From positions 35,895 through 99,894 of the IMG/VR virus record IMGVR_UViG_3300031521_000016: 64,000 nucleotides of DNA; one strand, written 5' to 3'. Source of the stretch: a virus. Lineage: Duplodnaviria > Heunggongvirae > Uroviricota > Caudoviricetes. Position 1 is the first letter of the stretch. Each line of letters opens with the position of its first letter. Shown here one piece after another: positions 10,921 to 59,315 of the stretch. The translations under genes and the position numbers were made by a program. The notes under the pieces were generated by a model. The model saw only the letters and a program-made list of their open reading frames with translations. It did no database searches and was not told the DNA's origin.

Positions 10921-10964
10921 AAAGTATGTTATTTTTTATTTTGGTATATATTCAGTGGTGCACG

Positions 10965-14084: not shown

Positions 14085-14103
14085 TTGTTTTTATTTATGA
14101 TAC

Positions 14104-14113
14104 AAAAATAACA
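14104..14113 (-). promoter_or_regulatory. TGTTATTTTT variant
   Basis: 20 nt upstream of the Sir2 start; TATTTTTG also fits a TAnnTTTG-type -7 box. Confidence 0.3.
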
Positions 14114-14119
14114 CAATTT

Positions 14120-14407
14120 TCATTTAGTGGGAAACGCTAGTTCTTTCTTATGTCTCATATCTTTCTTAGGCTCATACCCAATATAAATAAAATTACCTGA
14201 ATAGAACTGTCTATTCTCATATATTACGTATGAGAACTTATGTTCTCCATGGCATATGAGATTGAATTCAGTATCAGTAACTCTATCTCTATTGAAAGAT
14301 GACATACTACAATTACGCATAGAATCTGGATATACTGATGTTATCTCATATTTCCCATCGAATGTAAAAATATGTCCATGCAAATCTTCTACTTTAGATT
14401 TGAACAT
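14120..14407 (-). CDS. hypothetical protein
   Basis: Track ORF. Confidence 0.45.
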   Translation of the reverse strand: MFKSKVEDLHGHIFTFDGKYEITSVYPDSMRNCSMSSFNRDRVTDTEFNLICHGEHKFSYVIYENRQFYSGNFIYIGYEPKKDMRHKKELAFPTK

Positions 14408-18985: not shown

Positions 18986-19324
18986 TTATTTACTTTTTTG
19001 TTTAGCGTAAATGTCTTTGGCATACAGGTTGAAAATTGCCTGTCCAAATTCTTTACTGTAAAGAGTGTACTTATGTGTAGCACGGTCTCCAAAAATTAAT
19101 TCTCCCTGTTCGTTTAATGCAACAGTGGTAGTTTGCAGGTTACAAACAGGTGTTACTACTAGTGTAGAATTGTACTTGTTGTAAAGCTGCGAAGCGTAAA
19201 ATCCAATGACCATCGCGATAGCAATAACCAAAACATTTAACAGATTCTTGAAGATTGGTAAAATCTTGCCAAATAGTTTTTTAACTTGTTCTTTGTCGAT
19301 ACTTACTTTTTCATTTGTTATCAT
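18986..19324 (-). CDS. single-TM protein, holin or i-spanin candidate
   Basis: One central TM helix (LLNVLVIAIAMVIGFYASQLY); sits beside the transglycosylase. Confidence 0.4.
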   Translation of the reverse strand: MITNEKVSIDKEQVKKLFGKILPIFKNLLNVLVIAIAMVIGFYASQLYNKYNSTLVVTPVCNLQTTTVALNEQGELIFGDRATHKYTLYSKEFGQAIFNLYAKDIYAKQKSK

Positions 19325-19348
19325 ATTCTATGTTTTATAATTATGTAC

Positions 19349-19358
19349 AAAAATAACA
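19349..19358 (-). promoter_or_regulatory. TGTTATTTTT variant
   Basis: 25 nt upstream of the start at 19324. Confidence 0.3.
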
Positions 19359-19397
19359 AAAAAGCATATCGTAGTAAAACGCTACCTGACACAAAAT

Positions 19398-19422
19398 GGG
19401 GAGAATCATAATGACACTCCCC
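19398..19422 (-). terminator. hairpin GGGGAG...CTCCCC followed by ATTTTGTG on the coding strand
   Basis: Follows the small lipoprotein ORF. Confidence 0.45.
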
Positions 19423-19441
19423 AAAAGTTCAACTCTATTGA

Positions 19442-20103: not shown

Positions 20104-20940
20104 TTATTGCAAGTATACTGTCAATATATCGTCGAAGAACTCTTTGTTCTGTGTAAAGATCGGCGTTTCAACAGCTTCCCATTTATTTCGTCTTGCTCCA
20201 TTCTTTAGATACTCAACCTTTTTAATGATTGCTCCTCGCTTCCTGCGGTAATCATACTCATTCCAATTGATACCTTTTTCAAAGATCATATCTTGCATTA
20301 CATCTGTTTTCTTACCGTGTAGTTCTTTTGGGCTGTATAAGCTTTGAGCTACAGAAGAAATAGAATTGCGAGTGGCATCTTGCTGTCTCCAAATGAAATA
20401 ATTTATAACTTCCTGTCTAGCTGGAATAGTGAATACTCTAGCATCAAATTCAGCTAATTTTTTGAAGCATCCCATGATGTCATCATGTGTCTGAAAAACA
20501 AGATTTTCAAATTTTGACAGAGCACGTTTGATTCGCAATTCATTAAACTTATTAGTTGCCATAGAAGCTGATACACTTACAATCTTTTGGATATTATTAT
20601 CGTACCATGCATCGGTTGTTACATCATCGAAATCAGTAATTAATACTGAGATTTCATCAGATTGGACGTAAGCACATTTAGCACCTTGGATATTTTTACA
20701 CAGATATGCTGCAGTAAGATTCATATCTTCAATTAATCCATCATCAAATGGACGTTGCAACCCTTTCGTGTAAGTATGAAATGCTTTTCCATCGATTCTG
20801 ATTACTGCATATGTACGTCTGGGTAGATACATTCGAGTTCTGTTCTCGTAGAACTCTTTCATCCTGTTCCCTAAATCATCTTTTTTATTTTCCACGGTCG
20901 GTGTAATATTTAATGTATAATGCTTGTTGTCTGATGCCAA
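20104..20940 (-). CDS. Thg1-like tRNA 5'-guanylyltransferase (TLP)
   Basis: FYENRTRMYLPRRTYAVIRIDGKAFHTY...RPFDDGLIEDMN...CAYVQSDEISVLITDF matches the Thg1 catalytic core (RxDG, PFD, SDEIS). The start may be the internal M27. Confidence 0.75.
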   Translation of the reverse strand: MASDNKHYTLNITPTVENKKDDLGNRMKEFYENRTRMYLPRRTYAVIRIDGKAFHTYTKGLQRPFDDGLIEDMNLTAAYLCKNIQGAKCAYVQSDEISVLITDFDDVTTDAWYDNNIQKIVSVSASMATNKFNELRIKRALSKFENLVFQTHDDIMGCFKKLAEFDARVFTIPARQEVINYFIWRQQDATRNSISSVAQSLYSPKELHGKKTDVMQDMIFEKGINWNEYDYRRKRGAIIKKVEYLKNGARRNKWEAVETPIFTQNKEFFDDILTVYLQ

Positions 20941-21137: not shown

Positions 21138-21572
21138 TTAATCTTTTATGAATTTGCCGTGTAATGTACGGTATATAAGTTCTTTGACATATAGTCTATT
21201 AGCTGTACTTTTCCATTTAATGCCTCTTTTCCAATTGTACGATATGCAGTTAATCAACCAAGAATTTGACATTTCAGATATTGGAACCCATTTTAATGGT
21301 TCGTCACCATTCTTGCCTCTACCTCCTCTGCAAACATATTTTCGTATTTCTTTAAATGTGCTATCTGAATAGATAGAGACATCTTTCATTGGTGCTTCTG
21401 GATAATCTGACATTCTTCTGTATGAATTACCACCGTCTAACATGTATCGTTTACCATTAGCATCGTCATGTGTAACATAATGATGTGTATGTAAGGACGT
21501 AAGTATTGTACCATCAGGGGTTTGCATTCTGCAAACTAACATTTTTCTTTCTTTCATATTCAAATATAACAC
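21138..21572 (-). CDS. hypothetical protein
   Basis: Track ORF. Confidence 0.45.
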   Translation of the reverse strand: MLYLNMKERKMLVCRMQTPDGTILTSLHTHHYVTHDDANGKRYMLDGGNSYRRMSDYPEAPMKDVSIYSDSTFKEIRKYVCRGGRGKNGDEPLKWVPISEMSNSWLINCISYNWKRGIKWKSTANRLYVKELIYRTLHGKFIKD

Positions 21573-21583
21573 ATTATTTCTAT

Positions 21584-22006
21584 TTAGAAACCGAATTGTA
21601 TAGATTTTATCAGTCCTCGTTTTTTTATCTCGAATTCATCTACAGTCATACCAGATTTTGAAAATTCAGTAAATATCATGGGATCTTTTCTTATCCAGCT
21701 TAAAGTTTTACTGTTAAGTAATGATTTTTTCTTGATAAGTCCGAATCTATCTTTATATGCAAAATATGTATCGCCAATTTTTACAATTAGTATATCGTAA
21801 ACATATTTATCTGTAGTAGTACATCTTGGTTCAATTGTATCGCCTATAGCATAATATCCTTTTACGACTAACATCTTAACGTAATGACATGCAAGTCCAT
21901 CATGAATGAAACATTTTGTATCTAATATCGTAGGACTATCTTGATTAAGAAGCGAGCGCGTTTCGAATCTTTTTCTGAGTATTCTATCTAAAGTTGCCTG
22001 GTTCAT
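21584..22006 (-). CDS. hypothetical protein with C-terminal QFGF tail
   Basis: Ends ...KKRGLIKSIQFGF; lies immediately downstream of the PARP-like gene. Confidence 0.5.
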   Translation of the reverse strand: MNQATLDRILRKRFETRSLLNQDSPTILDTKCFIHDGLACHYVKMLVVKGYYAIGDTIEPRCTTTDKYVYDILIVKIGDTYFAYKDRFGLIKKKSLLNSKTLSWIRKDPMIFTEFSKSGMTVDEFEIKKRGLIKSIQFGF

Positions 22007-23263
22007 TTAGTTGCTAATTTCTATAATATAGCGGATAGTAGCTTGCGATATATCGTAAATGATGTATTCATTGTTTCGTAAGTCTGCTCCACCCTCAGCG
22101 AATACAGAATCGAAACCATCAGCTGCAAGATTCTTTTTATTTAGCCCGTAATTAGAACGTGTTACATGTTTCTGATTTCCTACGTGAAAGTCAAATAATG
22201 CCAAGAAAGCAGTAGCAGCAGAACCTCTCGCCCAGTATGAACCGGATAATGATGTATAGCCGATAGACTTTTGTGCTTTATCAGCTCCATAGATACCGTC
22301 TCCGAACATAGAACCAGAATATACTGCTCCAGATGGTCTAATCAAAAGCCCTGTCTGTAAAATGTTAAGCCAGTTTTCATTTCTAGAACCATGCCAGAAT
22401 GTTTGTATCTTTTTATTTTTAGCTGAATCTACTTGTTTAATGAAGCGTTCTTCTGTTTGTATATTTTTTACACCGAATGCTCTAACGAATTGTTTAGCAT
22501 TTGGCCCCATAAGCGATTTGATTTTTTGAACTTCTGCATCTGTAATTTCTACCATTTCAAGACCAAGCATCTTTAATGTATCAACTTTTTCATCTGCATC
22601 ATCTTCTTCTCCACCATTTTCTGCAAGTTTTTGTTTCTTCAACATTTCAACTTGTCCTGCCATAGTATCTAAAAGTTTTTGTTCTTTGTCCATCATGTCG
22701 AACAGAGTTTTGTTTTTTGTATCTTTTAGATCGAAGTCTTTGGGTAAAAGATGATAACTTACATGCTTCATCTTTCTAGGTATAATCGAATACAGCTCTA
22801 AGAATAAGTTGTTGATATCATTAACCGTAAGAGTGGATAATCCGGCAGATATCGTATTAATGATGCCTTGTGCTGCATCAACTTGTTGTTGTGTAACGTC
22901 AGATTGAGAAATCGTGTAGTTTTCTTCTACCGTCTTTTTAGCAAAAGCTTGTAGTCTGTCGAAGAATAACTTAATCTTAGCATTAGCAATCTGAGTAATC
23001 GTTTTCTTCTTGCCGGTTTTAACATCAGTAGCAGTGGCTCCAATAGATTCGATGAATAGTGTGGTTACATCTTTATAACCTTTTTTCGTTTTCGCTCGAT
23101 ATGTCTTTTCCCATTCTCTAATCGGATAAGTTTTTTCAGCTGGTTTACCTCCTTGTACTCTACCATATACGACTGTGAATGTTCCATTTTCATTATCAGT
23201 CATATGATAAAATTTGTTGTTATTTTCACTGGTCACCATGACCAATTTTACTACTTTCCCCAT
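22007..23263 (-). CDS. PARP-like ADP-ribosyltransferase with N-terminal WGR domain
   Basis: WGR-like N-terminus (NNKFYHM...VVYGRVQGG...KGYKDV). Catalytic domain FWHGSRNENWLNILQTGL...GDGIYGADKAQKSIGY...NNEYIIYDISQATIRYIIE aligns with the PARP1 H-G-S / Y-Y / E triad. Confidence 0.8.
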   Translation of the reverse strand: MGKVVKLVMVTSENNNKFYHMTDNENGTFTVVYGRVQGGKPAEKTYPIREWEKTYRAKTKKGYKDVTTLFIESIGATATDVKTGKKKTITQIANAKIKLFFDRLQAFAKKTVEENYTISQSDVTQQQVDAAQGIINTISAGLSTLTVNDINNLFLELYSIIPRKMKHVSYHLLPKDFDLKDTKNKTLFDMMDKEQKLLDTMAGQVEMLKKQKLAENGGEEDDADEKVDTLKMLGLEMVEITDAEVQKIKSLMGPNAKQFVRAFGVKNIQTEERFIKQVDSAKNKKIQTFWHGSRNENWLNILQTGLLIRPSGAVYSGSMFGDGIYGADKAQKSIGYTSLSGSYWARGSAATAFLALFDFHVGNQKHVTRSNYGLNKKNLAADGFDSVFAEGGADLRNNEYIIYDISQATIRYIIEISN

Positions 23264-24014: not shown

Positions 24015-25091
24015 TCAAAATATCATTTCATTAAGTTTTACATTGTCGATATATTTACTTCCGATATATTCGAATTGTCCACGAAACTCTGTACCTGAAC
24101 AATAATCTTCTTTTGTCGAGAAAATTTTATTCCGGTAAAGATATGATTCTACACGAGAAGCTAATTCGAACAGCTGAGGTTGTCTAATGTCATCCTTTGT
24201 GTATTTACCAAAAAATGGTTCGAGTTTTTGAATCTTTACTTTCGATTTACCGAGTAAGATTTTTGAAACTGAGGTAGCAGAGTGAGAAGATGGCAAGTCT
24301 CTGTATAAAATAAGTACGTCATTTAGAATAGCAGATGGCTTACCGACAGTTGATTCTTTATCGAAAATTAAGTTTGCAATATATTTCTTAAAATCGAGAA
24401 AGGACATGTCTGAAAAATCTTGTCTTTCATAACGGTCTGGTACATCGACATAATGTTTCATTTCACTATATTCAATAGAACTTTCACATGGAAATGAAGA
24501 GAGCTCTAAGAACATCATGTGTACTATTTTATTATGTAAATCACCAGGTACATCTTTTATTTTTAAAGAATGATGCATATCTGTAGGAATTTGTTGTGTC
24601 AGATATTCTCTGGCTTCTGCTATATCTTCAAAATATGAAGTATTAGTAACAACTCTTCCTAGTTTGCTATATGTTACTGCAGCAATAGATGCAACTGCTT
24701 TTGGATATGAGCCAAAAATACATCGATTAGTAATAATAAATTCTACTGATTTACGGCATCGTGAATTATGAGAATTTACGAGTTCTCCAGTAGAACATGG
24801 GATATCTTCCCATCCTAAGAAGATTTCAGGAGTGGCTTGCGTCTGCCAGATAAGTTCAATGAGAGCTTCATTTTTTCTCTCTACTACGGCATCGTATGTC
24901 TTACCCGATAATTCGTAATCACACACTTTAAGCGGAACATCATATCCACGCTTATCTTGAACGTAAATTTCGAGGCCCCGCTTAGTAGCAAAACATTGAG
25001 ATATCGTGTATTTTTCATCTCTATGAAAAGATGAATTCTCAGAACGAGAAAAAATAACGTCTCCAGGTTTTAAAAATAGATATTCATTCAT
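24015..25091 (-). CDS. hypothetical protein (358 aa)
   Basis: Track ORF with a promoter-like motif 25 nt upstream. Confidence 0.55.
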   Translation of the reverse strand: MNEYLFLKPGDVIFSRSENSSFHRDEKYTISQCFATKRGLEIYVQDKRGYDVPLKVCDYELSGKTYDAVVERKNEALIELIWQTQATPEIFLGWEDIPCSTGELVNSHNSRCRKSVEFIITNRCIFGSYPKAVASIAAVTYSKLGRVVTNTSYFEDIAEAREYLTQQIPTDMHHSLKIKDVPGDLHNKIVHMMFLELSSFPCESSIEYSEMKHYVDVPDRYERQDFSDMSFLDFKKYIANLIFDKESTVGKPSAILNDVLILYRDLPSSHSATSVSKILLGKSKVKIQKLEPFFGKYTKDDIRQPQLFELASRVESYLYRNKIFSTKEDYCSGTEFRGQFEYIGSKYIDNVKLNEMIF

Positions 25092-25114
25092 TTGATTATT
25101 TTTTTAGAATAAAT

Positions 25115-25124
25115 AAAAATAACA
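25115..25124 (-). promoter_or_regulatory. TGTTATTTTT variant
   Basis: 24 nt upstream of the start at 25091. Confidence 0.3.
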
Positions 25125-25374
25125 CAAAATGATGAACAGAGAAAATGTGTTAGTCTTTCTCTAACATGGTTTTTACGATGTATACACCAAAACCGATTAC
25201 GATAATAGCACCAAATACTTTATCAGAATTATCGACTATGTATTTAAAAAGATCGAACATAAATTGTTTTTTAATTATTACTTGAGAACGCTTAGTATAC
25301 TAAGTCTTGAATAGCATACTTTACCACTAAATGATCTGATAATTATTGTATTCAACGACCGCAAAAGTTCTGGG

Positions 25375-30025: not shown

Positions 30026-30958
30026 TTAAAATACTAGGGATGACTTTGTTTCCCATCTGAAATACAATTTTGCATTTTCTCTAAGAACCAGATACTTGTA
30101 CGTATCTTTTATTTCAGATGCCATGCAATCATCATCTACACATATAGACATTTCATCTATGTCATATAGATTTGCACCAAATGGTAAAATAGTCAATAAT
30201 CTGTATGAAGTTTTCACATACTCTACGATAGCATTATAGAAATGCTTACTCGCATTCTCATCTATCCATTTATCGATTTCTGAGTTCGATTCAGATTTAT
30301 AGAGTTTTCTGAATGTTACTTGATCAGCTCCTAGAAATTTACATCTGTCGATTATCGCTTTTGGACTATAGTTATCGAAGTCATTAACTAAATTTATAGA
30401 TAATCTGATATTGAAATCTAACTCTTTTGCAAGGGCAATTTTATCGAATACATTAAATTCAGTACTTTTGGCACATCCTATTAATTCTAAATTGCGTAAA
30501 TTATCAACTATGTTTGAAATTGAAAATGAAATAGTAGTAACTCCAATACGACGTAAATGCGTCAAATTTGATTTATCCAGTAATACACCGGTAGTTTGTA
30601 GTTCGATGCTTTTAAATGGTGAAGTCAATCTTGAATTGATCTCAGAGAAGAAATCTAAGAATTGTGGATTTTGAATAGGTTCACCTGTACCAGTTAATAC
30701 TACTGTGTTACAGCCGTTATCTCTAGCAAATTGCAATCGATTAAAATAATCTTTGTAATACTGAGAGTCTTTAGAAATTATTTTATCTAATGCATGTCTT
30801 CTGGCTAAAGATGTGTTAAACTCTTTAAAATTCGGTTTAATCAACGCAGATATAACGTCATTGTATGGATTAGTATGAGTTCTACTAACACAAAATTTAC
30901 AGTGATTTATACATTTGTTCTTCGTCGGAACAACGATACTAAGACTTTGGATATTCAT
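30026..30958 (-). CDS. radical SAM enzyme
   Basis: CINHCKFC (CX3CX2C) at residues 16-23 and a downstream GTGEP SAM-binding motif. Confidence 0.7.
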   Translation of the reverse strand: MNIQSLSIVVPTKNKCINHCKFCVSRTHTNPYNDVISALIKPNFKEFNTSLARRHALDKIISKDSQYYKDYFNRLQFARDNGCNTVVLTGTGEPIQNPQFLDFFSEINSRLTSPFKSIELQTTGVLLDKSNLTHLRRIGVTTISFSISNIVDNLRNLELIGCAKSTEFNVFDKIALAKELDFNIRLSINLVNDFDNYSPKAIIDRCKFLGADQVTFRKLYKSESNSEIDKWIDENASKHFYNAIVEYVKTSYRLLTILPFGANLYDIDEMSICVDDDCMASEIKDTYKYLVLRENAKLYFRWETKSSLVF

Positions 30959-30984
30959 ATTGCTTTAGTTCTGAATTATTATAA

Positions 30985-30994
30985 AAATATAACA
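30985..30994 (-). promoter_or_regulatory. TGTTATATTT motif
   Basis: Between terminator 31008-31037 and the radical SAM start at 30958. Confidence 0.4.
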
Positions 30995-31007
30995 TATATT
31001 TTCACAC

Positions 31008-31037
31008 AAAAAAAAAGGAGTATCGCCACGATACTCC
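31008..31037 (-). terminator. rho-independent terminator (9-bp stem GGAGTATCG/CGATACTCC, 3-nt loop, then T9)
   Basis: Perfect stem followed on the minus strand by TTTTTTTTT; downstream of the flotillin gene stop. Confidence 0.7.
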
Positions 31038-31060
31038 TTTTGATATTAAGAAAGGTATTT

Positions 31061-37130: not shown

Positions 37131-37895
37131 TTATTTTTTATTTGTTGGTTCTAACCAAGTTCCATCTCTAAATATTAGATCAAGAAAGCCCGGAATATAT
37201 GTTGATTCTACTAAATTCAACAGTTTTAAAGTTTTGACTGTATCATGTTTCATCATCTTCTTAACTTCTTCTCTTATACGTTCATTACTCACAGTCTTTC
37301 CAAGTTTTTCGAGGATAGCAGGTTGCTTCATAGCTTCCCAAATATCTACGTGGATATCGAAGTTTTTTGTGATAGAAAAACGCATAGCTCGCAAGATACG
37401 TAATGGATCGTCCATCATAGTAATCTTTGGATCGATAGGGGTAATCAAAATACGATTACTTAATGCAAGCTTGCCATTGAATAAGTCGATAATTTTGCCC
37501 TCTTCATCTTCTGCCATTGCATTGACAGTAAAATCTCTTCGTTCTAAGTCATCAGCTAAAGTACCCAGTGCTAAGATAGGAGTTCTTGTATCGGGTATGT
37601 AACCGAGCTCTTTTCGTGCTAATACAAAATCAGCAACTAATCCGTCATAAATATGACCATGTGGAAATTTAGCGCGAATAGTAAACATTTCTGGAGTAGA
37701 AAGAAAGATACTATATTTGCGTTCTTTCATCCATTCATACATGACGTTGAAACCTTCAGTGACAGTTAATTCACTGCATAAGCCAGGAACTATACGTTCT
37801 TGTTCATTTAGTACAAAAGTGAAATCGACATCTTTGTTTTCGATACCTAATAGAGCATCTCTTACTACTCCTCCTACTTTATAAATTTTTGGCAT
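37131..37895 (-). CDS. class-II tRNA nucleotidyltransferase head/neck domain (minimal CCA- or A-adding enzyme / poly(A) polymerase family)
   Basis: GGVVRDALLG...DVDF, ERRDFTVNAMA and DDPLRILRAMRF are the canonical PolyA_pol head-domain motifs; only 254 aa. Confidence 0.8.
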   Translation of the reverse strand: MPKIYKVGGVVRDALLGIENKDVDFTFVLNEQERIVPGLCSELTVTEGFNVMYEWMKERKYSIFLSTPEMFTIRAKFPHGHIYDGLVADFVLARKELGYIPDTRTPILALGTLADDLERRDFTVNAMAEDEEGKIIDLFNGKLALSNRILITPIDPKITMMDDPLRILRAMRFSITKNFDIHVDIWEAMKQPAILEKLGKTVSNERIREEVKKMMKHDTVKTLKLLNLVESTYIPGFLDLIFRDGTWLEPTNKK

Positions 37896-38109
37896 ATTGT
37901 ATGTTTAATTCGTATCTTTTTATTGAGGTAGTAATTGATGGAATAACTTGACCATTAGTTATGAGGCTTAATCTATCAATAAGTTCCCTATCATTATAAT
38001 GTTCAGAATTTCGTATAATCTTTGAAAAATTCTGATTAAAACGTAATCTATAAGGTACTTTACTTCCCCCTCGATAATACTTTACATTATGAAATTTTAT
38101 AAGCTGCAT
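37879..38109 (-). CDS. hypothetical protein
   Basis: Track ORF. Confidence 0.4.
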   Translation of the reverse strand: MQLIKFHNVKYYRGGSKVPYRLRFNQNFSKIIRNSEHYNDRELIDRLSLITNGQVIPSITTSIKRYELNIQYAKNL

Positions 38110-38486
38110 TAATCAATAGCTTGGGCAGTAAATGTTAACGAGGCTGGTCTTACATCATTGAATCCAAGCTGTTTGAGTTGATAAATAATGGCATCTTCCA
38201 TTATGTCATCCTCTTCGATTTTTATGAATACTGCATAATTCGGTTTCTCAGCATAGTTACCGTCTGGAAAATAAACAAACTTGCAGTTTATCAGAAATCT
38301 ATACAGAACGGGATCTTTTACTGCTTCGACTTCAGTGAAAGAATCGATTGTGACAAGATGATGAATTTCATACTTATCGATGAGAACAATAGAATCGAAT
38401 TCTTCAGCATCTTTGTAATAAGTACCTTTGATAGGTCTATTTGTTCTGAATTCTTTTCCGGCGTATAATTTACCTACTTCTAACAT
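38109..38486 (-). CDS. hypothetical protein
   Basis: Track ORF with a promoter-like motif 19 nt upstream. Confidence 0.5.
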   Translation of the reverse strand: MLEVGKLYAGKEFRTNRPIKGTYYKDAEEFDSIVLIDKYEIHHLVTIDSFTEVEAVKDPVLYRFLINCKFVYFPDGNYAEKPNYAVFIKIEEDDIMEDAIIYQLKQLGFNDVRPASLTFTAQAID

Positions 38487-38504
38487 ATATTTGATTTTAT
38501 AGAT

Positions 38505-38514
38505 AAATATAACA
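38505..38514 (-). promoter_or_regulatory. TGTTATATTT motif
   Basis: Between terminator 38544-38578 and the start at 38486. Confidence 0.4.
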
Positions 38515-38543
38515 TATTTTGATGCGAAGAGTAAACCTCGGAA

Positions 38544-38578
38544 ATAAAAAAATGCCTGAATTAAAAAATTCAGGCATT
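38544..38578 (-). terminator. rho-independent terminator (stem AATGCCTGAATT/AATTCAGGCATT plus T7)
   Basis: 12-bp stem followed on the minus strand by TTTTTTT. Confidence 0.65.
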
Positions 38579-38602
38579 TTACATTTTCTTGGCAATATAT
38601 TT

Positions 38603-39120: not shown

Positions 39121-39516
39121 AGCTTTAAGAAAAAATAACCGTATTATACCCTATCATCTCTTCGTTAATTTACTAGAGTTTGTAGATAGTCCTAGTACGT
39201 TGCAAATCTCGGTCCATATTTTGGTCGATTATGTATTTCTACATCAACGCTTCTTTATTACTAAAGCTTTAAACTAGGGTCGACTGGTACAATATTTCCG
39301 ACCGATTGGATGGTTAAAGATTATTACTTGTTAAGTCCTTTGCTGTATTTTTCACCCATCTTCACGATATTGAAACATTCAGTATTCGTGATTTGATTTA
39401 ACTTGGCAGTTTTATCGATGTTACTACCGTCTGCTACATACGCATTATACAATGCAATTGCGTGATCTTTGAAAATTGTGTTCATTTGATTATTTTTTTA
39501 AATTGTTTTTATAATC

Positions 39517-39526
39517 TAATATAACA
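39517..39526 (-). promoter_or_regulatory. TGTTATATTA motif
   Basis: 32 nt upstream of a 53-aa ORF (39324-39485) that is not in the track. Confidence 0.3.
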
Positions 39527-39546
39527 TAATGAACACGCATAGAAAA

Positions 39547-39987
39547 TTACGCTTTGATAATTTTGTGTTTTTCTAGGTCAATTTGGCCTATCTTCGTAAC
39601 ATCTTGAATGTACCAGTTTAGAATTCTATGACTGTTAGTAGCTTCTTCACAGTCATTCTCATCTATGAAAATTTCATATACTGTATCATGAACAAGAATA
39701 TATTGAGAATAAGAATCGAGGTTATCCCATGAGTCAAACTCGAACATATCTCTTATGTAATCTTCAAGAAATGCCGTCAATGAATGTTCTATAGTCTCAC
39801 CGGACACTTCTTCAAATTCGTCCATGAATGTATCAGAATAGTCGAATACTTTTATCTTCCTAGCTTTCTTAGGTGCAGATTTAAGGATTGCCATGAAATC
39901 GATAACGGCTTTGTCTGTAGATTTCCCTTCAGGTAAAGTTCTACCATATTCAATAGCATCGAATATGATTTGATTTGTTAGTGTCAT
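39547..39987 (-). CDS. hypothetical protein
   Basis: Track ORF. Confidence 0.5.
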   Translation of the reverse strand: MTLTNQIIFDAIEYGRTLPEGKSTDKAVIDFMAILKSAPKKARKIKVFDYSDTFMDEFEEVSGETIEHSLTAFLEDYIRDMFEFDSWDNLDSYSQYILVHDTVYEIFIDENDCEEATNSHRILNWYIQDVTKIGQIDLEKHKIIKA

Positions 39988-40489: not shown

Positions 40490-40927
40490 TTACACTAATT
40501 TTGAAAAATCTTTTAGCTCATTTCTAACTTTCATCAGGATTTTACCAAGCATATTTTTACCTACACCTTCGCATACTCCCCAATATTTATCTCCCCACCA
40601 ATTACCTTCAATAAGCATTGCATCACCGGTAGCAATTAATTTCTTTGTAAGTTCGGCACTTTGTGAAAATTTAGCCATTACGACTTCTTCCATAATGCTA
40701 TCTTTAACTAAATCCCAATCGGAACGTAGATTTACAGATCTGCCAAGTTTTTTACTCTCGCTTGGATTAAGCGATACGAATGATTCTCTAGCAACTGAAT
40801 CATTCGTTTTCATAGAATGAAATGCGCCTTCTGAGTTGGCATACGTTCTTCCGTCATAAGTAACTGGTGATTCCCAGAAGTTACTGAGGAATGCGTATTC
40901 CCCTTTGAAAAAGTCAATAGTTTTCAT
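40490..40927 (-). CDS. NADAR (YbiA-like) ADP-ribosyl hydrolase domain protein
   Basis: FLSNFW, E at SEGAFHSMK, MEEVVMAKFSQ...LTKKLIATGDAMLIEGNWWGDKYWG and NMLGKILMKVR match the NADAR signature. Confidence 0.75.
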   Translation of the reverse strand: MKTIDFFKGEYAFLSNFWESPVTYDGRTYANSEGAFHSMKTNDSVARESFVSLNPSESKKLGRSVNLRSDWDLVKDSIMEEVVMAKFSQSAELTKKLIATGDAMLIEGNWWGDKYWGVCEGVGKNMLGKILMKVRNELKDFSKLV

Positions 40928-42394: not shown

Positions 42395-43588
42395 TTATCT
42401 TGATGCACTAGGCCTGGGAATCCTTCCCTTTTCTACTTCAGGTCTATTACTTATTCTACTTTTTTTGACATGCCTAATTTGATCATTACAATTTTTCCAT
42501 CTCATGGATATGAGTAAATTGTTGATATAGTCACGATCTGGAGATTCTTGCATGTCGGATTTGTCAAATGCTTCATTTACTTGTTTCATCAAGTCTTCAG
42601 CTTCATTAACTAAATCTTCATATTCATATTCTCCTTTTCTGATAGCTAACAATTTATCTCTATTTGTGCGTCTTACATTTATTCCTTTGCCTTGCGCAAT
42701 CTCTAATGACATTTCAAGCAAACGTAAAGTATGTGCTAAATTTTTACCGTCATATCCTTTTCCGTGCAACATGTTATCATTGAAACGGTGAACATTCCTT
42801 TTGGCAACCCATTCCCAGTATTCTTTATATTCTTTGCAGTATACAGAATAACCTTCCATGTTAAATTGCATTAAGAAATCTGGTTTTATACCACTTGGAA
42901 TATTACTAAGACTTACATCCATCGCAGTTTCTTCGTCTGAAACAATACCTCTATAGTAATCAGATATGAGAATGCCTTGTTCTCTAGCAAGAAATTGATT
43001 ACGATTATAGTATACACCGTATGTGTTTTTCATATGAGGTAGTGCAACTAATCCACAACAATCTTGTACCATGTCGTTCATTCGTAAGTACTCTTTAACG
43101 TTAATAGAGCCTTGCTTCCATTGAACGAAACAGAATTCTAAAATGCTTTTGCGTTTTTCATCGAACTGTTTAACAATCTTTTTGTTCAATCCTCTAGCTT
43201 TCTTTATTTGTTGAGTAGCATACCCACCAAATGAATTTTTACAGAGCTTAGAGATAAATTTATCTCTATTTTCGAGGATCATATCGAATATTGGTGCTTT
43301 ATAAATTACACAATCTTCAGGTGTATTCAAAAGCTCTATGATATTAGGATTGTTAGTGTATATTAATTCCAAAAATTTTCCTAATTCGTAGAATGTGATA
43401 TCGTTCATTTCATCAGATACTTGATCGTCATATTCTAATCCAAGAATTTTATCGATAGGTTGCATGAATACACCACGTATGTCTGTATCAGAAGTTTCTG
43501 TTGCAGTACCATATGCGTGTGAACCAGCGATAACTTCATAAATTATCAGTCCATTATCTCGTAAATCTTGTAAAGTTAATTTCTTCAT
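42395..43588 (-). CDS. Pol-beta-superfamily nucleotidyltransferase (RlaP/PF10127-like; CD-NTase/OAS-like not excluded)
   Basis: GSHAYGTATETSDTDIRGV is the G[S]-x9-DxD nucleotidyltransferase motif followed by RGV, as in RNA-repair-associated predicted nucleotidyltransferases; 397 aa. Confidence 0.6.
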   Translation of the reverse strand: MKKLTLQDLRDNGLIIYEVIAGSHAYGTATETSDTDIRGVFMQPIDKILGLEYDDQVSDEMNDITFYELGKFLELIYTNNPNIIELLNTPEDCVIYKAPIFDMILENRDKFISKLCKNSFGGYATQQIKKARGLNKKIVKQFDEKRKSILEFCFVQWKQGSINVKEYLRMNDMVQDCCGLVALPHMKNTYGVYYNRNQFLAREQGILISDYYRGIVSDEETAMDVSLSNIPSGIKPDFLMQFNMEGYSVYCKEYKEYWEWVAKRNVHRFNDNMLHGKGYDGKNLAHTLRLLEMSLEIAQGKGINVRRTNRDKLLAIRKGEYEYEDLVNEAEDLMKQVNEAFDKSDMQESPDRDYINNLLISMRWKNCNDQIRHVKKSRISNRPEVEKGRIPRPSASR

Positions 43589-43884
43589 TTGAAGTTCTTT
43601 ATTGTATTAAATTCTGAAATAAAATCTTGATAATTAATTTCAGTATATTGATGTTCATTGAAATATTGTATGTCATTGCTAAATGACATTTGCATATCTG
43701 CTACAAAAATAAACGGTCCTAAAACTGGCTTTATTCTTCGTGTATCTACATGGGTATGCAATATTGAAGTATCAGCAAAAGAACTCCAATTGAAGCCATG
43801 CTCTAACATGATAGCTTGAAATAATCTTCCTTCGCCAGTGTTAGCTAGTCGTATTCTAAAGGTTGTAGTTTTATCGAGTTGCAT
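43585..43884 (-). CDS. hypothetical protein
   Basis: Track ORF. Confidence 0.45.
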   Translation of the reverse strand: MQLDKTTTFRIRLANTGEGRLFQAIMLEHGFNWSSFADTSILHTHVDTRRIKPVLGPFIFVADMQMSFSNDIQYFNEHQYTEINYQDFISEFNTIKNFK

Positions 43885-43908
43885 CTTATGCTATTATTGA
43901 TTATTTTA

Positions 43909-43918
43909 AAATATAACA
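43909..43918 (-). promoter_or_regulatory. TGTTATATTT motif
   Basis: Between hairpin 43931-43964 and the start at 43884. Confidence 0.4.
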
Positions 43919-43930
43919 AAATAAGTACAT

Positions 43931-43964
43931 ATAGAAAAGGAGGCATTTTACGTAAAATGCCTCC
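43931..43964 (-). terminator. hairpin (stem GGAGGCATTTTA/TAAAATGCCTCC) with T-runs on both sides
   Basis: Perfect 12-bp stem located 25 nt after the stop of 43989-44435. Confidence 0.55.
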
Positions 43965-43988
43965 TTTTTTCTTCAAATTAAGTGTGTC

Positions 43989-45868: not shown

Positions 45869-45874
45869 GTAATC

Positions 45875-45884
45875 TAATATAACA
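45875..45884 (-). promoter_or_regulatory. TGTTATATTA motif
   Basis: Only 7 nt upstream of the ATG at 45868, which would give a near-leaderless transcript. Confidence 0.3.
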
Positions 45885-45897
45885 AAAGATGATACGA

Positions 45898-46278
45898 CTA
45901 GATAATTTCTTTTAATGATTCAGCAGTCTTCAAGTATTCTTTTATGAACTGTGCCAATTTGTAGTCATATAGAGAAATATGATATAATAACCATTTTCTC
46001 GATATATTTACAAGTTCTTCACTTGTTTTATCACATTTCATTGATTCTAAACTATTAAGAAAGTCCGAATGCAAACATATATGAGATTTGAAATCTGGAT
46101 AATCTAGCAATAACATTATCTGCTCTTCGTGAGCAAAATGAATGCGTGAATAGTCTTTTAATGCCGCTACAGCATTAGTTACATCTATTTCTTCATTTTC
46201 TATTTGTTCGAAAATCTCGAAAAATCGTTGGTGATCATTATCTAAAATGTCAATCTCAAGCTTTAAAAAGTCTATCAT
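45898..46278 (-). CDS. hemerythrin-like HHE cation-binding domain protein
   Basis: Spacing of HFAHEEQIM ... HICLH ... WLLYHISLYDYK fits hemerythrin iron ligands. Confidence 0.5.
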   Translation of the reverse strand: MIDFLKLEIDILDNDHQRFFEIFEQIENEEIDVTNAVAALKDYSRIHFAHEEQIMLLLDYPDFKSHICLHSDFLNSLESMKCDKTSEELVNISRKWLLYHISLYDYKLAQFIKEYLKTAESLKEII

Positions 46279-52664: not shown

Positions 52665-52695
52665 ATTTACATTTTTTAAATTGATTATTTTAAAC

Positions 52696-52705
52696 TAATA
52701 TAACA
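52696..52705 (-). promoter_or_regulatory. TGTTATATTA motif
   Basis: Between hairpin 52711-52737 and the start at 52664. Confidence 0.4.
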
Positions 52706-52710
52706 CAAAT

Positions 52711-52737
52711 GAGGGTAGGAAAAAAATTCCTACCCTC
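52711..52737 (-). terminator. hairpin (11-bp stem GAGGGTAGGAA/TTCCTACCCTC) followed by ATTTGTG
   Basis: Perfect stem immediately upstream of a TGTTATATT motif. Confidence 0.5.
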
Positions 52738-52862
52738 TTAACTGAAAAAATGTATTGATGCAAAAAGTTGCGTACGCAATTAAATTACTGCAATGATTTA
52801 CGAAATAACAGTTTCAGTCATAATAAAACCTAATTGATTTTATTATATATCTGCTCCTACTG

Positions 52863-53429: not shown

Positions 53430-53462
53430 TGTTTTTTTTATTTTATGATTATTTTTATAGAC

Positions 53463-53472
53463 AAATATAACA
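53463..53472 (-). promoter_or_regulatory. TGTTATATTT motif
   Basis: 34 nt upstream of the start at 53429. Confidence 0.35.
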
Positions 53473-53495
53473 CATGTTCTAGCACAAAGAAAATA

Positions 53496-54261: not shown

Positions 54262-54291
54262 AACCCTCCAAATAGAATTATGAGGAGGGTT
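54262..54291 (-). terminator. hairpin AACCCTCC...GGAGGGTT followed by TTTTTAG, lying between a promoter-like motif and a start codon
   Basis: 8-bp stem with a 14-nt loop; an unusual position that could be an attenuator-like element. Confidence 0.35.
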
Positions 54292-54301
54292 AAATATAAC
54301 A
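54292..54301 (-). promoter_or_regulatory. TGTTATATTT motif
   Basis: Upstream of hairpin 54262-54291 and the start at 54250. Confidence 0.35.
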
Positions 54302-54318
54302 AAATATTGCAAAACGAA

Positions 54319-54915
54319 TTACATCGTCTGTTTTCTTTTATTTTTCCATTCAGTATATGGCATTTTGACATCTTTTTCTGTATCACCATCTTTTACTTTT
54401 AGTGTTACATCTTTTCCATCATAGTCATAAAGATAGAACGTACCTAAATCGTCAGCTCTATATTTATTTCCCAATTCAATCTTATCTTGAATAGAGTTAC
54501 CAACAGCAACTTCTTCAATTTTACCGATTTGAATTTTGAATTTTCTACCCTTTTTGTCTCTTAGTACGATAAGAACTTTATTAGGATCTACTTTCTTTGC
54601 TTCTGCAGCAGTTTCGATAGGTTTGATAATGTCTTTCTTATCTTTGCCAAATTCTTCCATACCTACTACATCTAATTCAGATTCTAGTCTATTGAAAGGT
54701 GGTTCGCCTGCTGGTGTATCAAATTCTGGACCTTCATTGTTTATTACTGCAGTAAAAGGTTTACCAGCAGAAAGAAGATCGAAAAAGTAAGATGCTACTA
54801 CCGGTACGCTTAAGCTTTTTGAAGCAGTACCTTTATCACCTGGTTGGTATGCTGCAATTCTACCTTCTGCTAGCATAGTAAAACCATCGAAGGTTTTGAT
54901 TTTTTTATAACCCAT
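54319..54915 (-). CDS. hypothetical protein (possible head-assembly protein by position)
   Basis: Track ORF two genes downstream of the portal-like gene. Confidence 0.45.
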   Translation of the reverse strand: MGYKKIKTFDGFTMLAEGRIAAYQPGDKGTASKSLSVPVVASYFFDLLSAGKPFTAVINNEGPEFDTPAGEPPFNRLESELDVVGMEEFGKDKKDIIKPIETAAEAKKVDPNKVLIVLRDKKGRKFKIQIGKIEEVAVGNSIQDKIELGNKYRADDLGTFYLYDYDGKDVTLKVKDGDTEKDVKMPYTEWKNKRKQTM

Positions 54916-59222: not shown

Positions 59223-59315
59223 TTTAGTAAATGATATTAGTTATTCTGAACTATTATTAGTAGTAGAGAATTTATAGTATTTATATGGCTAGCTGTTATT
59301 AGTTCTAACAACAAA

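What the first reader, a model, noticed from the sequence alone, without database searches (positions are those of the whole stretch)
30985..30994. Recurrent intergenic 10-mer TGTTATATTT/TGTTATTTTT (coding strand): candidate phage promoter coupled to upstream hairpin terminators
At least 13 intergenic sites carry this motif 7-45 nt upstream of start codons. They are near 4781, 5993, 14104, 19349, 25115, 30985, 38505, 39517, 43909, 45875, 52696, 53463 and 54292. Eight are exact TGTTATATTT. Several sit immediately after a stem-loop plus T-run (4795, 31008, 38544, 43931, 52711), giving a terminator-promoter module. The motif resembles an extended -10 (TGnTATAAT), and the TTTTT variants also fit a Bacteroidota -7 box (TAnnTTTG). 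Two copies (near 10927 and 61955) are in inverted orientation.
Basis: seen in the sequence. Interest (0 to 1): 0.5.

Follow-up and report, generated by a model that had tools for sequence, protein, structure and literature searches.

The report
Stereotyped promoter motif of a huge Bacteroidota phage
A short sequence (TGTTATWTT) that recurs between genes in this uncultured giant phage is very probably its own version of the unusual promoter type used by Bacteroidota bacteria, often placed right after a transcription terminator; this is useful for annotation but is an expected kind of element.

Summary
The 9-mer TGTTATWTT occurs 16 times on the coding (minus) strand. Fourteen of these lie in the 4.3% of the window that is intergenic, where 0.19 are expected by chance. 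TGTTAT is the most enriched intergenic hexamer in an unbiased scan.

The 14 sites form a discrete class. They score 23.5-37 bits on a position weight matrix (PWM), and the next best hit scores 9.3. They share a bipartite layout: a T-rich TTTTCT-like box, about 14-15 nt, then TnTGTTATWTT(T)(G), lying 5-42 nt upstream of start codons. Seven sites follow a strong hairpin plus T-run.

The geometry matches the Bacteroidota sigma-A -33/-7 promoter (TTTG-N19-21-TAnnTTTG), not the sigma-70 -35/-10 promoter. The phage is a T4-like huge phage of the Lak/Mahaphage group, and its genes lack Shine-Dalgarno sites. Relatives carry textbook AAATTTG-N19/20-TAnnTTTG promoters in the same kind of position. One 68-70% ortholog locus conserves hairpin plus TGTGTTATATT. 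Two further sites outside the window, in the same phage, are both intergenic.

A separate ATATATA(G) motif plus a T4 gp55 homologue accounts for the late genes.

Verdict: a lineage-specific "extended -7" promoter class, most likely read by host RNA polymerase. A phage-factor-dependent (middle-type) class is not excluded. This is a new variant of a known kind, of modest interest.

The parts
4775..4810 (-). Promoter-like site 1: TATTCT-N15-TGTTATATT, 17 nt before the ATG at 4763. The T-rich box lies in the loop of the upstream terminator hairpin.
   Evidence: (32.1 bits)
5987..6022 (-). Promoter-like site 2: CTTTTC-N15-TGTTATTTT, 16 nt before the ATG of an AAA_33 kinase-like gene (5572-5976).
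   Evidence: (27.4 bits)
14099..14134 (-). Promoter-like site 3: TTTCCC-N15-TGTTATTTTTG (full TAnnTTTG), 20 nt before the ATG of the Sir2 gene (13398-14084). No terminator upstream.
   Evidence: (26.1 bits)
19344..19379 (-). Promoter-like site 4: TTTTAC-N15-TGTTATTTTTG, 25 nt before the ATG of 18986-19324. This gene heads an operon that includes SLT and OmpA-domain genes.
   Evidence: (28.2 bits)
21557..21592 (-). The first ATG is only 5 nt downstream, at the predicted start site. An in-frame ATG lies 15 nt further on.
   Evidence: (27.1 bits)
25110..25145 (-). Promoter-like site 6: TTTTCT-N15-TGTTATTTT, 24 nt before the ATG of 24015-25091. This gene heads an operon that includes the PARP-domain gene.
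   Evidence: (36.0 bits)
30980..31015 (-). Promoter-like site 7 (the finding's own coordinates): TTTTTT-N15-TGTTATATT, 27 nt before the ATG of the radical-SAM gene (30026-30958). The T-run of the terminator supplies the upstream box.
   Evidence: (30.9 bits)
38500..38535 (-). Promoter-like site 8: TTTACT-N15-TGTTATATT, 19 nt before the ATG of 38109-38486.
   Evidence: (32.5 bits)
39512..39547 (-). Promoter-like site 9: ATTTTC-N15-TGTTATATT, 32 nt before the ATG of a 53-aa ORF (39324-39485). The leader contains AATAATCA.
   Evidence: (24.6 bits)
43904..43939 (-). Promoter-like site 10: CTTTTC-N15-TGTTATATT, 25 nt before the ATG of 43585-43884. This gene heads an operon with RlaP, RNaseH-like and NADAR genes.
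   Evidence: (29.1 bits)
45870..45905 (-). Promoter-like site 11: TTATCT-N15-TGTTATATT. The first ATG is 7 nt downstream, so the mRNA is leaderless or the start is the in-frame ATG 24 nt further on.
   Evidence: (27.9 bits)
52691..52726 (-). Promoter-like site 12: TTTTTT (hairpin loop)-N15-TGTTATATT, 32 nt before the ATG of a conserved 409-aa membrane protein (51435-52664). TGTGTTATATT and the hairpin are conserved in the 68-70% ortholog locus L143.
   Evidence: (30.4 bits)
53458..53493 (-). Promoter-like site 13: TTTTCT-N15-TGTTATATTTG (best PWM score), 34 nt before the ATG of 52863-53429 (PHROG family 'virion structural protein').
   Evidence: (37.2 bits)
54287..54322 (-). Promoter-like site 14: GTAATT-N15-TGTTATATT (weakest upstream box), 42 nt before the ATG of 53948-54250. 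A hairpin plus T-run follows the motif instead of preceding it.
   Evidence: (23.5 bits)
4794..4817 (-). Intrinsic-terminator-like hairpin (10 bp stem, dG -15.1). Its TTTG tail abuts the TGTTATATT of site 1.
6015..6044 (-). Terminator-like hairpin (dG -15.7), 13 nt upstream of site 2.
19387..19431 (-). Terminator-like hairpin (GGGGAG...CTCCCC then ATTTT, dG -16.9), 28 nt upstream of site 4.
31013..31041 (-). Terminator-like hairpin (13 bp, dG -16.1) followed by a long T-run, 18 nt upstream of site 7.
38549..38580 (-). Terminator-like hairpin (14 bp, dG -17.8) plus T-run, 27 nt upstream of site 8.
43935..43968 (-). Terminator-like hairpin (dG -19.4). Its tail, TTTTCT, is the upstream box of site 10.
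52711..52737 (-). Terminator-like hairpin (11 bp, dG -18.8), 5 nt upstream of site 12. It is kept in L143 with different arm sequences.
54264..54289 (-). Hairpin CCCTCC...GGAGGG plus TTTTT, starting 12 nt after the T of TGT of site 14. The predicted start site falls inside its 5' arm.

Best explanation
TGTTATWTT is the core of a stereotyped class of phage promoters of the Bacteroidota -33/-7 type.

The TATWTT(T)(G) part corresponds to the -7 element TAnnTTTG. The invariant TnTGT immediately upstream acts like an 'extended' element, with TG one base before the TA-box, as in extended -10 promoters. A T-rich TTTTCT-like box 14-15 nt upstream of TGT takes the place of the -33 TTTG, giving an 18-20 nt spacer to the TA.

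Host RNA polymerase with the Bacteroidota primary sigma factor would bind here and start transcription about 4-6 nt downstream of the motif, near the conserved TA at +13/+14. This would yield A-rich leaders of about 11-37 nt without Shine-Dalgarno sites.

Half of the sites sit just after a strong intrinsic terminator, so each terminator-promoter pair ends one transcription unit and starts the next. The class drives non-structural, auxiliary genes: Sir2, PARP, radical SAM, RNA repair, a kinase and many unknowns.

Structural genes use a different ATATATA(G) motif that is probably read with the phage's gp55-like late sigma.

Shown: the motif, its layout, its bias, its conservation and its context. 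Inferred: promoter activity, the start site, and which sigma reads it.
For: 1. Bias. Fourteen of 16 sense-strand copies are intergenic, against 0.19 expected. Only 1 of 4 antisense copies is intergenic. TGTTAT is the top intergenic hexamer.

2. Bipartite logo. T is present in 11-12 of 14 sites at each of positions -20 to -18, there is C/T at -17/-16, and T at -2 is invariant. After the core come T in 9 of 14, G in 7 of 14, and A at +14 in 12 of 14. The T-rich box is present whether or not a hairpin is nearby.

3. Discrete class. The sites score 23.5-37.2 bits and the next best hit scores 9.3. The two copies inside genes lack the flanks.

4. Geometry. The layout matches the Bacteroidota promoter as described in PMC6847099: T-12, A-11, T-8, T-7, T-6 and G-5, with 4-5 nt to the start site and a -33 TTTG. 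Sigma-70 -35/-10 pairs are not enriched (101 found against 97 in shuffles, 91 against 100, and 77 against 100).

5. Host type. The portal protein is closest to Bacteroidetes-infecting huge phages and Lak phages (PMC7162821). Shine-Dalgarno-like 4-mers are found upstream of 5 of 108 starts, against 9.8 at random positions, and leaders are A-rich.

6. Out-of-sample test. In about 9 kb of the same phage beyond the window (L021), both new copies are sense-strand and intergenic. One follows a hairpin and reads TGTTATATTTG.

7. Conservation. In L143 (the 68-70% ortholog of the 409-aa gene) the otherwise diverged spacer keeps TGTGTTATATT and the hairpin, the latter with changed arm sequences.

8. Relatives. 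L169, L172 and L174 have AAATTTG-N19/20-TACCTTTG or TATATTTG at 12-100 nt, mostly 22-44 nt, before ATGs. The syntenic L142 has TTTCAC-N20-TAAATTTG after terminators, and TGTTAAATT at the orthologous operon.

9. Separate late system. There is a gp55 homologue (PHROG family phrog_234 at 2e-16; PDB 7d7c_F at 4e-5). ATATATA-type motifs precede the gp15-like gene and other genes of the structural block.

10. Logic. After 7 strong terminators, this motif is the only conserved element before the next gene.
Against: - No transcription start data exist.
- T-6 (9 of 14) and G-5 (7 of 14) are only weakly kept here. They are nearly invariant in Flavobacterium johnsoniae promoters (PMC6847099).
- The upstream box has C or T where the consensus has G.
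- The canonical TAHHTTTG is not enriched in intergenic DNA apart from the four TGTTAT sites that contain it. What this phage selects is TGTTATWTT, not the host consensus, which could mean an extra phage factor is involved.
- None of 80 relatives shares the motif.
- One site precedes a gene whose PHROG family is called 'virion structural protein', so 'non-structural genes only' is not strict.
- The host is inferred, not identified.
- Only about 84 kb of a genome that is probably much larger was seen.
Confidence: 0.65

Rival explanations
1. The motif marks promoters that need a phage-encoded specificity factor. This would be a middle-type class in the manner of T4 MotA/AsiA sigma appropriation, or a phage sigma other than gp55. 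The host -7-like box would be retained, and the invariant TnTGT and/or the TTTTCT box would be read by the phage factor.
For: - TGT and T at -2 are invariant, while the host-critical T-6 and G-5 are relaxed.
- The -33 position has TTTTCT here and TTTCAC in L142, instead of the AAATTTG seen in other relatives.
- No plain canonical -7 boxes are enriched in 64 kb.
- The motif is lineage-specific.
- Huge phages are reported to encode sigma-70-like and AsiA-like proteins (PMC7162821).
Against: - No sigma, MotA or AsiA-like family was found among the roughly 80 window proteins scanned, apart from the gp55 homologue (Pfam columns).
- If this class needed a phage factor, the 84 kb examined would contain no promoter usable by the unmodified host enzyme.
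- The geometry is fully explained by a sigma-A promoter with an extended element.
Confidence: 0.2
2. The motif acts in RNA, not DNA. It would be an intercistronic processing site, a translational operator or a stability element (UGUUAUWUU) in leaders transcribed from further upstream.
For: The motif is strand-specific and lies in 5' regions of genes. An RNA element would show the same orientation bias.
Against: - A second conserved box at fixed spacing upstream and a variable distance (5-42 nt) to the ATG fit a DNA promoter, not an RNA operator near the start codon.
- Seven sites lie just downstream of strong terminators, where little read-through RNA is expected.
- Relatives have textbook promoters in the same positions.
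- No Rfam family matches the window.
Confidence: 0.05
3. These are ordinary sigma-70-type extended -10 promoters (TGnTATAAT) of a phage whose host is not a Bacteroidota bacterium.
For: TG-T-TATATT has the extended -10 geometry, and TATATT matches TATAAT at 5 of 6 positions.
Against: - No TTGACA-like -35 is present, and sigma-70 promoter pairs are not above shuffles.
- TGnTATAAT itself is never intergenic in the window.
- Shine-Dalgarno sites are absent.
- The closest relatives are Bacteroidetes-type huge phages that carry TTTG/TAnnTTTG promoters.
Confidence: 0.06
4. The recurrence has no function of its own. It would be a by-product of AT-rich intergenic composition or of copied intergenic cassettes.
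For: Intergenic DNA is AT-rich, and the 10-mer with one mismatch allowed is not enriched window-wide.
Against: - Composition-matched shuffles of the intergenic DNA give 0.19 against 14 observed.
- The flanks outside the two boxes are not similar to each other.
- The motif is conserved in L143 while its surroundings diverged.
Confidence: 0.02

Closest known systems
Bacteroidota primary-sigma (sigma-ABfr) promoters, -33 TTTG / -7 TAnnTTTG (Bayley et al. 2000; Chen et al. 2007; refined to TAHHTTTG in PMC6847099)
   Same: - TA..TT of the -7 box is invariant.
- There is no G at the two middle positions.
- A T-rich box lies 18-20 nt upstream of the TA.
- The site is sense-oriented and close upstream of genes that lack Shine-Dalgarno sites.
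- Relatives of this phage carry the textbook form.
   Different: - T-6 and G-5 are kept in only 64% and 50% of sites.
- The upstream box is TTTTCT, with no G.
- An invariant TnTGT extension precedes the box.
- The sequence is far more stereotyped than a host promoter set.
Extended -10 promoters of sigma-70 (TGnTATAAT), including phage T4 early promoters (own knowledge)
   Same: TG sits exactly one base upstream of the TA-box. The upstream element is weak or atypical, as expected if the TG contact compensates for it. These are strong phage promoters built on the host enzyme.
   Different: There is no TATAAT hexamer or TTGACA -35. The host sigma is very probably of the divergent Bacteroidota type. 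Sigma-70-type pairs are not enriched.
T4 middle promoters (MotA box at -30 plus a sigma-70 -10; sigma appropriation by MotA/AsiA; own knowledge)
   Same: The host-like downstream box is kept, while the upstream element is replaced by a different conserved box (TTTTCT here, TTTCAC in L142).
   Different: The box sequence is unrelated to the MotA box. No MotA or AsiA homologue was seen in the window. No timing data exist.
T4 late promoters (TATAAATA, read by gp55 with gp33 and the sliding clamp; own knowledge; gp55 in PDB 7d7c)
   Same: The phage has a gp55 homologue and a separate A/T-only motif, (A/G)ATATATA(G/A), before structural genes.
   Different: TGTTATWTT is a different sequence, has an upstream box, and precedes mostly non-structural genes. 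It is not this class.
Rho-independent terminators followed directly by a promoter (insulated transcription units in compact phage genomes)
   Same: Seven of 14 sites follow a GC-rich hairpin plus T-run within 4-28 nt. In three of them the T-run or the hairpin loop doubles as the upstream promoter box.
   Different: Half of the sites have no terminator. At one site (54293) the order is reversed.

Membership tests
Bacteroidota sigma-A -33/-7 promoter | -7 element TAnnTTTG, with T-12, A-11, T-8, T-7, T-6 and G-5 nearly invariant and no G at -10/-9 | tested here: inconclusive
   TA, T-8 and T-7 are present in 14 of 14 sites, though these positions lie inside the 9-mer used to select the sites. The middle positions are T and A/T. 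T-6 is present in 9 of 14 sites and G-5 in 7 of 14. The full TAHHTTTG is present in 4 of 14 (definition from PMC6847099).
Bacteroidota sigma-A -33/-7 promoter | -33 element TTTG about 19-21 nt upstream of the -7 element | tested here: inconclusive
   A T-rich box lies at the right distance (TTT at -20 to -18 in 11-12 of 14 sites; spacer 18-20 nt), but C/T stands where G is expected. PMC6847099 notes that the -33 is weak even in F. johnsoniae.
Bacteroidota sigma-A -33/-7 promoter | Transcription starts 4-5 nt downstream of the -7 element | not testable with these tools
   No RNA data are available. A conserved TA/A at +13/+14 (12 of 14) lies in the expected zone.
Bacteroidota sigma-A -33/-7 promoter | Recognition by the Bacteroidota primary sigma holoenzyme, in a Bacteroidota host | not testable with these tools
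   Indirect evidence only: portal affinity to Bacteroidetes huge phages, no Shine-Dalgarno sites, and canonical promoters in relatives.
Bacteroidota sigma-A -33/-7 promoter | Sense-oriented position shortly upstream of genes | tested here: met
   Fourteen of 14 class members are intergenic, on the coding strand, 5-42 nt before an ATG. Two of 2 are so placed outside the window.
Sigma-70 extended -10 promoter | TG one base upstream of the -10 hexamer | tested here: met
   TG-T-TATWTT in all 14 sites.
Sigma-70 extended -10 promoter | -10 hexamer close to TATAAT, and sigma-70-type promoters in general use in the genome | tested here: not met
   - The hexamer is TATATT or TATTTT.
- TGnTATAAT is intergenic in 0 of 2 sense-strand copies.
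- Sigma-70 -35/-10 pairs are at or below shuffle expectation in all three 20-kb scans.
T4-type late promoter (gp55) | TATAAATA-like -10 element without an upstream box, in front of late (structural) genes | tested here: not met
   - The motif differs in sequence and has an upstream box.
- Downstream genes are mostly auxiliary.
- A separate ATATATA(G) class sits before the gp15-like gene, the 858-aa gene and others.
T4-type middle promoter (MotA-dependent) | MotA box (TGCTT core) near -30, and MotA/AsiA encoded by the phage | tested here: not met
   No TGCTT-type box is present; the box is TTTTCT. No MotA or AsiA family hits were found among the window proteins scanned. The rest of the genome was not seen.
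Intrinsic (rho-independent) terminator, for the upstream half of the module | GC-rich stem-loop followed directly by a T-run, downstream of a gene | tested here: met
   Seven of 14 sites have one: dG -15.1 to -19.4 kcal/mol with T-rich tails. Only 3 of 60 control windows reached -10 or lower. The other 7 sites have none.

The most novel reading that the evidence does not exclude
TGTTATWTT sites are not plain host promoters but a phage-programmed class. An unidentified phage factor, or a modified host sigma, would read the invariant TnTGT and/or the TTTTCT box. This would make the class the Bacteroidota-phage counterpart of T4 middle transcription (sigma appropriation). Each huge-phage lineage would have evolved its own private promoter 'dialect': TGTTATWTT here, TTTCAC/TAAATTTG in L142, TACCTTTGTA and GTATATTTG in others.
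Probability: 0.2. Interest if true: 0.55.

Novelty: new variant of a known kind. Interest (0 to 1): 0.3.

Why it matters
It gives a ready-made transcription map for an uncultured huge phage:
- 14 predicted transcription units in 64 kb.
- Seven terminators.
- A separate late class tied to a gp55 homologue.

It supports a Bacteroidota host. It flags two start codons that are probably mis-called.

It also shows that related huge phages each carry a very stereotyped private version of the -33/-7 promoter. The TG-extended version, with the otherwise near-invariant G relaxed, is a testable hint about how the divergent Bacteroidota sigma reads DNA, and a candidate strong part for Bacteroidota genetic tools.

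It does not open a new kind of biology.

Tried and rejected
- **Source contig in IMG/VR by exact 53-mer:** nothing found.
- **Portal-based locus searches**: only short or structural-region relatives. L012 is syntenic but covers no TGTTAT region.
- **Near-identical metagenome copies** (L002-L008, L021, L022): no substitutions around the sites, so there is no power for population-level footprinting.
- **Radical-SAM homologues**: many huge-phage contigs, but synteny is lost. Those loci show TATATATA or TAAATAAA motifs, not TGTTATWTT.
Follow-up found only unrelated cases: L046 is a tandemly repeated gene cassette with a Shine-Dalgarno site, and L133 is not related.
- **Is the 409-aa gene behind site 52697 the capsid gene?** If so, that would argue against a non-late class. 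It has no PDB or Pfam hit, and its conserved hydrophobic N- and C-terminal segments point to a membrane protein. I ran no further search on it.
- **Rfam on the whole window:** no match.
- **The 203-nt gene-free gap at 39121-39323:** not unusually structured (z = -0.9).
- **Rejected readings:** T4 late promoter, ribosome-binding site (the distance to the ATG varies too much) and dimeric operator (the core is not palindromic).
Full report
**1. What the window is**

- The window has 33% G+C. In my ORF-based gene set, about 95% of it is coding and all but three short ORFs lie on the minus strand.
- It encodes several T4-type proteins:
  - a T4-type portal at 55246-56964 (Pfam Portal_T4, 1e-62);
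  - a gp15-like tail-sheath stabiliser;
  - proteins like the head-closure protein and the gp2 DNA-end protector;
  - a homologue of the T4 late sigma gp55 at 58875-59222 (phrog_234 at 2e-16; PDB 7d7c_F 'gp55' at 4e-5).
- The closest portals in the phage collection are those of 460-735 kb uncultured huge phages (34-44% identity) and the Prevotella Lak megaphages (about 36%). That group was predicted to infect Bacteroidetes (PMC7162821).
- Shine-Dalgarno-like 4-mers are under-represented before start codons (5 of 108 genes against 9.8 at random positions), and leaders are A-rich. Both are reported traits of Bacteroidetes (PMC6847099).
- The same phage occurs almost unchanged in many metagenome assemblies.

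**2. The observation**

- Exact TGTTATATTT occurs 6 times (0.9 expected) and TGTTATWTTT 10 times (2.1 expected). All but one are on the minus strand.
- The real unit is the 9-mer TGTTATWTT. There are 16 copies on the coding strand. Fourteen lie in the 4.3% of the window that is intergenic (p about 8e-18). Shuffles of the intergenic DNA itself give 0.19.
- In an unbiased k-mer comparison, TGTTAT is the most enriched intergenic hexamer, and TGTTATAT is intergenic in 10 of 10 copies.
The count of 'eight exact' is wrong, and the 'inverted copy' at 61955 is not a match. The plus-strand copy at 10927 lacks the context of the class.

**3. Anatomy**

Aligning the 14 sites shows conservation beyond the 9-mer:
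- an invariant T two bases upstream (TnTGTTATWTT);
- then T (9 of 14) and G (7 of 14);
- a TA at +13/+14 (A in 12 of 14);
- a T-rich box at -21 to -16 (TTTTCT in four sites; T in 11-12 of 14 sites at each of three positions).

The T-rich box is present whether or not a hairpin is near.

A PWM over -22 to +15 separates the 14 sites (23.5-37.2 bits) from everything else (9.3 or less). The two 9-mer copies inside genes fall away. So this is a discrete class, not the tail of a compositional distribution.

The motif ends 5-42 nt before the first ATG.

**4. Terminator coupling**

- Seven of the 14 sites follow a hairpin of -15 to -19 kcal/mol with a T-rich tail, 4-28 nt upstream of TGT. Only 3 of 60 random coding-strand windows reach -10.
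- In sites 7 and 10 the terminator's T-run is itself the upstream box. In sites 1 and 12 the box lies in the hairpin loop.
- The other seven sites start 6-23 nt after the preceding stop codon without a terminator. This count includes 25116, which lies just after an unannotated 36-codon ORF.
- At 54293 the order is reversed: the hairpin plus T-run begins 12 nt after TGT.

**5. Which promoter type**

- Read as T-A-T-W-T-T-(T)-(G), the core aligns with the Bacteroidota -7 element TAnnTTTG (TAHHTTTG).
- The T-rich box lies 18-20 nt upstream of the TA, where the -33 TTTG belongs.
- The conserved A at +14 lies in the zone where starts are expected, 4-5 nt after the element (PMC6847099).
- Sigma-70-type TTGACA/TATAAT pairs are not above shuffle expectation in any of three 20-kb scans, and TGnTATAAT is never intergenic.
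- The TG-N-TA arrangement does copy the geometry of an extended -10 element.

**6. Comparative evidence**

- *Same phage, outside the window.* About 9 kb beyond the left end (L021) holds two further 9-mers. Both are sense-strand and intergenic. One follows a hairpin and reads TGTTATATTTG. None is in coding DNA. About 9.6 kb beyond the right end is a tightly packed replication/recombination operon with no copy of the 9-mer.
- *L143.* This locus encodes a 68-70% identical ortholog of the 409-aa gene. The spacer has diverged, but three blocks survive: CAGATATATAAT, the hairpin (with different arm sequences that still pair), and TGTGTTATATT, here completed to TATATTTG.
- *L142.* This is a syntenic 21-kb relative (57% identity). 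It has no TGTTATWTT. It has TTTCAC-N20-TAAATTTG after terminators, and hairpin-TTTTTG-TGTTAAATT before the orthologous operon.
- *Eighty further relatives from IMG/VR* (30-54% identity in that protein):
  - None is enriched for TGTTATWTT.
  - Many show textbook AAATTTG-N19/20-TACCTTTG(TA) or (G)TATATTTG before start codons, 12-100 nt and mostly 22-44 nt upstream.
  - TAHHTTTG occurs up to 18 times in the upstream regions of one locus.

So the group as a whole uses Bacteroidota-type promoters. Each lineage has its own very uniform version, and the window's phage has a TG-extended version with a relaxed 3' G.

**7. A second class**

- Gaps without TGTTATWTT often carry (A/G)ATATATA(G/A), sometimes with GTRCAC a few bases upstream. 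Examples are 63231, 62320, 61964, 52844 and 10945.
- These precede the gp15-like gene, a 99-aa gene, the 858-aa gene and an AAA+/DUF2201 operon.
- The same motif stands before the 858-aa ortholog in L012 (AGATATATAG) and after the portal in L142. It is the top intergenic k-mer in several relatives.
- With a gp55 homologue present, this is the natural candidate for the late class. The T4 late promoter is TATAAATA (own knowledge).
- That leaves TGTTATWTT as the class that works without gp55.

**8. Genes served**

- First genes and operons behind the 14 sites encode:
  - an AAA_33 kinase-like protein, Sir2 and a radical-SAM enzyme;
  - PARP, NADAR, RlaP and RNaseH-like proteins;
  - a CCA-adding-type nucleotidyltransferase, an HD protein and a cation-efflux protein;
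  - SLT and OmpA-domain proteins, an RnlB-like antitoxin and many unknowns.
- The exception is 52863-53429, whose PHROG family is named 'virion structural protein'.
- The 409-aa protein behind site 12 is a widely conserved protein with hydrophobic ends, not a capsid protein.

**9. Mechanism proposed**

- Host RNA polymerase with the Bacteroidota primary sigma binds the -7-like box. The TG extension, and perhaps the T-rich box, compensate for the missing G.
- Transcription starts near +14 to +16 and gives short A-rich leaders.
- Upstream terminators isolate units.
- This is inferred, not shown.

The main rival (about 20%) is that the invariant TnTGT and the non-canonical upstream box are read by, or with, a phage factor, as in T4 middle transcription. 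The points in its favour are:
- the relaxed T-6 and G-5;
- the absence of plain canonical boxes in 64 kb;
- the lineage specificity of the motif.

No such factor was seen in the window, but most of the genome is unseen.

RNA-level roles, a sigma-70 host and chance are each unlikely, for the reasons given under the rival explanations.

**10. Novelty and score**

- Bacteroidota -33/-7 promoters, extended TG elements, terminator-promoter pairs and T4-type temporal classes are all known.
- New here are the particular TG-extended, G-relaxed version, and the observation that related huge phages each carry a private, highly uniform version.
- This is useful for annotation and as a lead on sigma-DNA recognition in Bacteroidota, but it is not surprising in kind. 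Interest 0.3.

Noticed in passing
window 63225-63245, 62314-62334, 61958-61978, 52838-52858, 10939-10960 (minus strand); also L012 3933-3999, L142 3708-3752, L019 4405-4443: A second intergenic motif class, (A/G)ATATATA(G/A), often has GTRCAC 4-8 nt upstream. It precedes the gp15-like gene, the 858-aa gene and other genes. It is conserved at orthologous spots in relatives, and TATATATA or GATATATAG is the top intergenic k-mer in many related huge phages. It is the likely gp55-dependent late promoter class.
   Followed up: partly
window 58875-59222 (-), with upstream gap 59223-59365: This 115-aa protein is a homologue of T4 late sigma gp55 (phrog_234 at 2e-16; PDB 7d7c_F at 4e-5). Its own upstream region has a terminator hairpin followed by CCATATAAATAC. 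An ATATAAA-like block also stands before the orthologs in L012 and L142.
   Followed up: partly
window 53446, 52682, 43898, 39487, 25093 (minus strand): The 8-mer AATAATCA is intergenic in 5 of its 6 sense-strand copies. All five lie in leaders downstream of TGTTATWTT sites, between the motif and the ATG. Relatives show similar AATAATTAA or TAACCAATTAA leader motifs. It may be a leader or translation-initiation element in phages that lack Shine-Dalgarno sites.
   Followed up: no
window 54264-54301 (-): At site 54293 the terminator-like hairpin (CCCTCC...GGAGGG plus TTTTT) follows the promoter motif, and the predicted start site falls inside its 5' arm. Transcripts arriving from the portal operon would contain the whole hairpin and could stop there. 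Transcripts started at the promoter would lack part of the stem and could read on. This is pure inference.
   Followed up: no
window 52703-52858 (-): Between the conserved CAGATATATAAT block and terminator 52711-52737 lies about 110 nt with no ORF. It folds well (z = -6.1 for 52703-52838 including the terminator) and is partly conserved in L143. It could be a small RNA made from a late-type promoter, or a structured 3' UTR.
   Followed up: partly
window 21557 and 45868 (first ATGs of ORFs 21138-21557 and 45353-45868): In two transcription units the first ATG lies only 5-7 nt after the motif, at or before the predicted start site. Either the mRNAs are leaderless or the true starts are the in-frame ATGs 15 and 24 nt further downstream.
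   Followed up: partly
window 39121-39323 and 25146-25374 (-): Two long gaps have no called gene. The 203-nt gap has no Rfam match and is not unusually structured (z = -0.9). The 283-nt gap contains an uncalled 36-codon ORF (MFDLFKYIVDNSDKVFGAIIVIGFGVYIVKTMLEKD) with a hydrophobic core, ending 5 nt before the upstream box of site 25116.
   Followed up: partly
window 56957-57727 (-); L019 4444-5142 versus L020: A homing-endonuclease-like gene (phrog_655 at 2e-34) sits between the gp2-like gene and the portal and overlaps the portal start. Other copies of the phage have a 245-aa form there. L019 differs from L020 by an inserted NUMOD3-type gene that is preceded by CTTATATATAG. These are mobile endonucleases that vary between strains.
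   Followed up: no
window 13398-14084, 22007-23263, 40490-40927, 42395-43588, 20104-20862, 37131-37895, 53496-53984: There is a dense set of auxiliary genes typical of conflict and RNA-repair systems: Sir2, a PARP catalytic domain, NADAR, RlaP, Thg1-like tRNA-His guanylyltransferase, a CCA-adding-type nucleotidyltransferase and an RnlB-like antitoxin.
   Followed up: no
L046 (IMGVR_UViG_3300020166_000306), 854-8021: An unrelated viral contig carries six tandem gene cassettes of about 1.3-1.6 kb. Each is preceded by a nearly identical ...TTTTTTTCTATGTTATATTATAAAAAC... followed by GGAGG and an ATG. It surfaced only because it shares the 9-mer.
   Followed up: no
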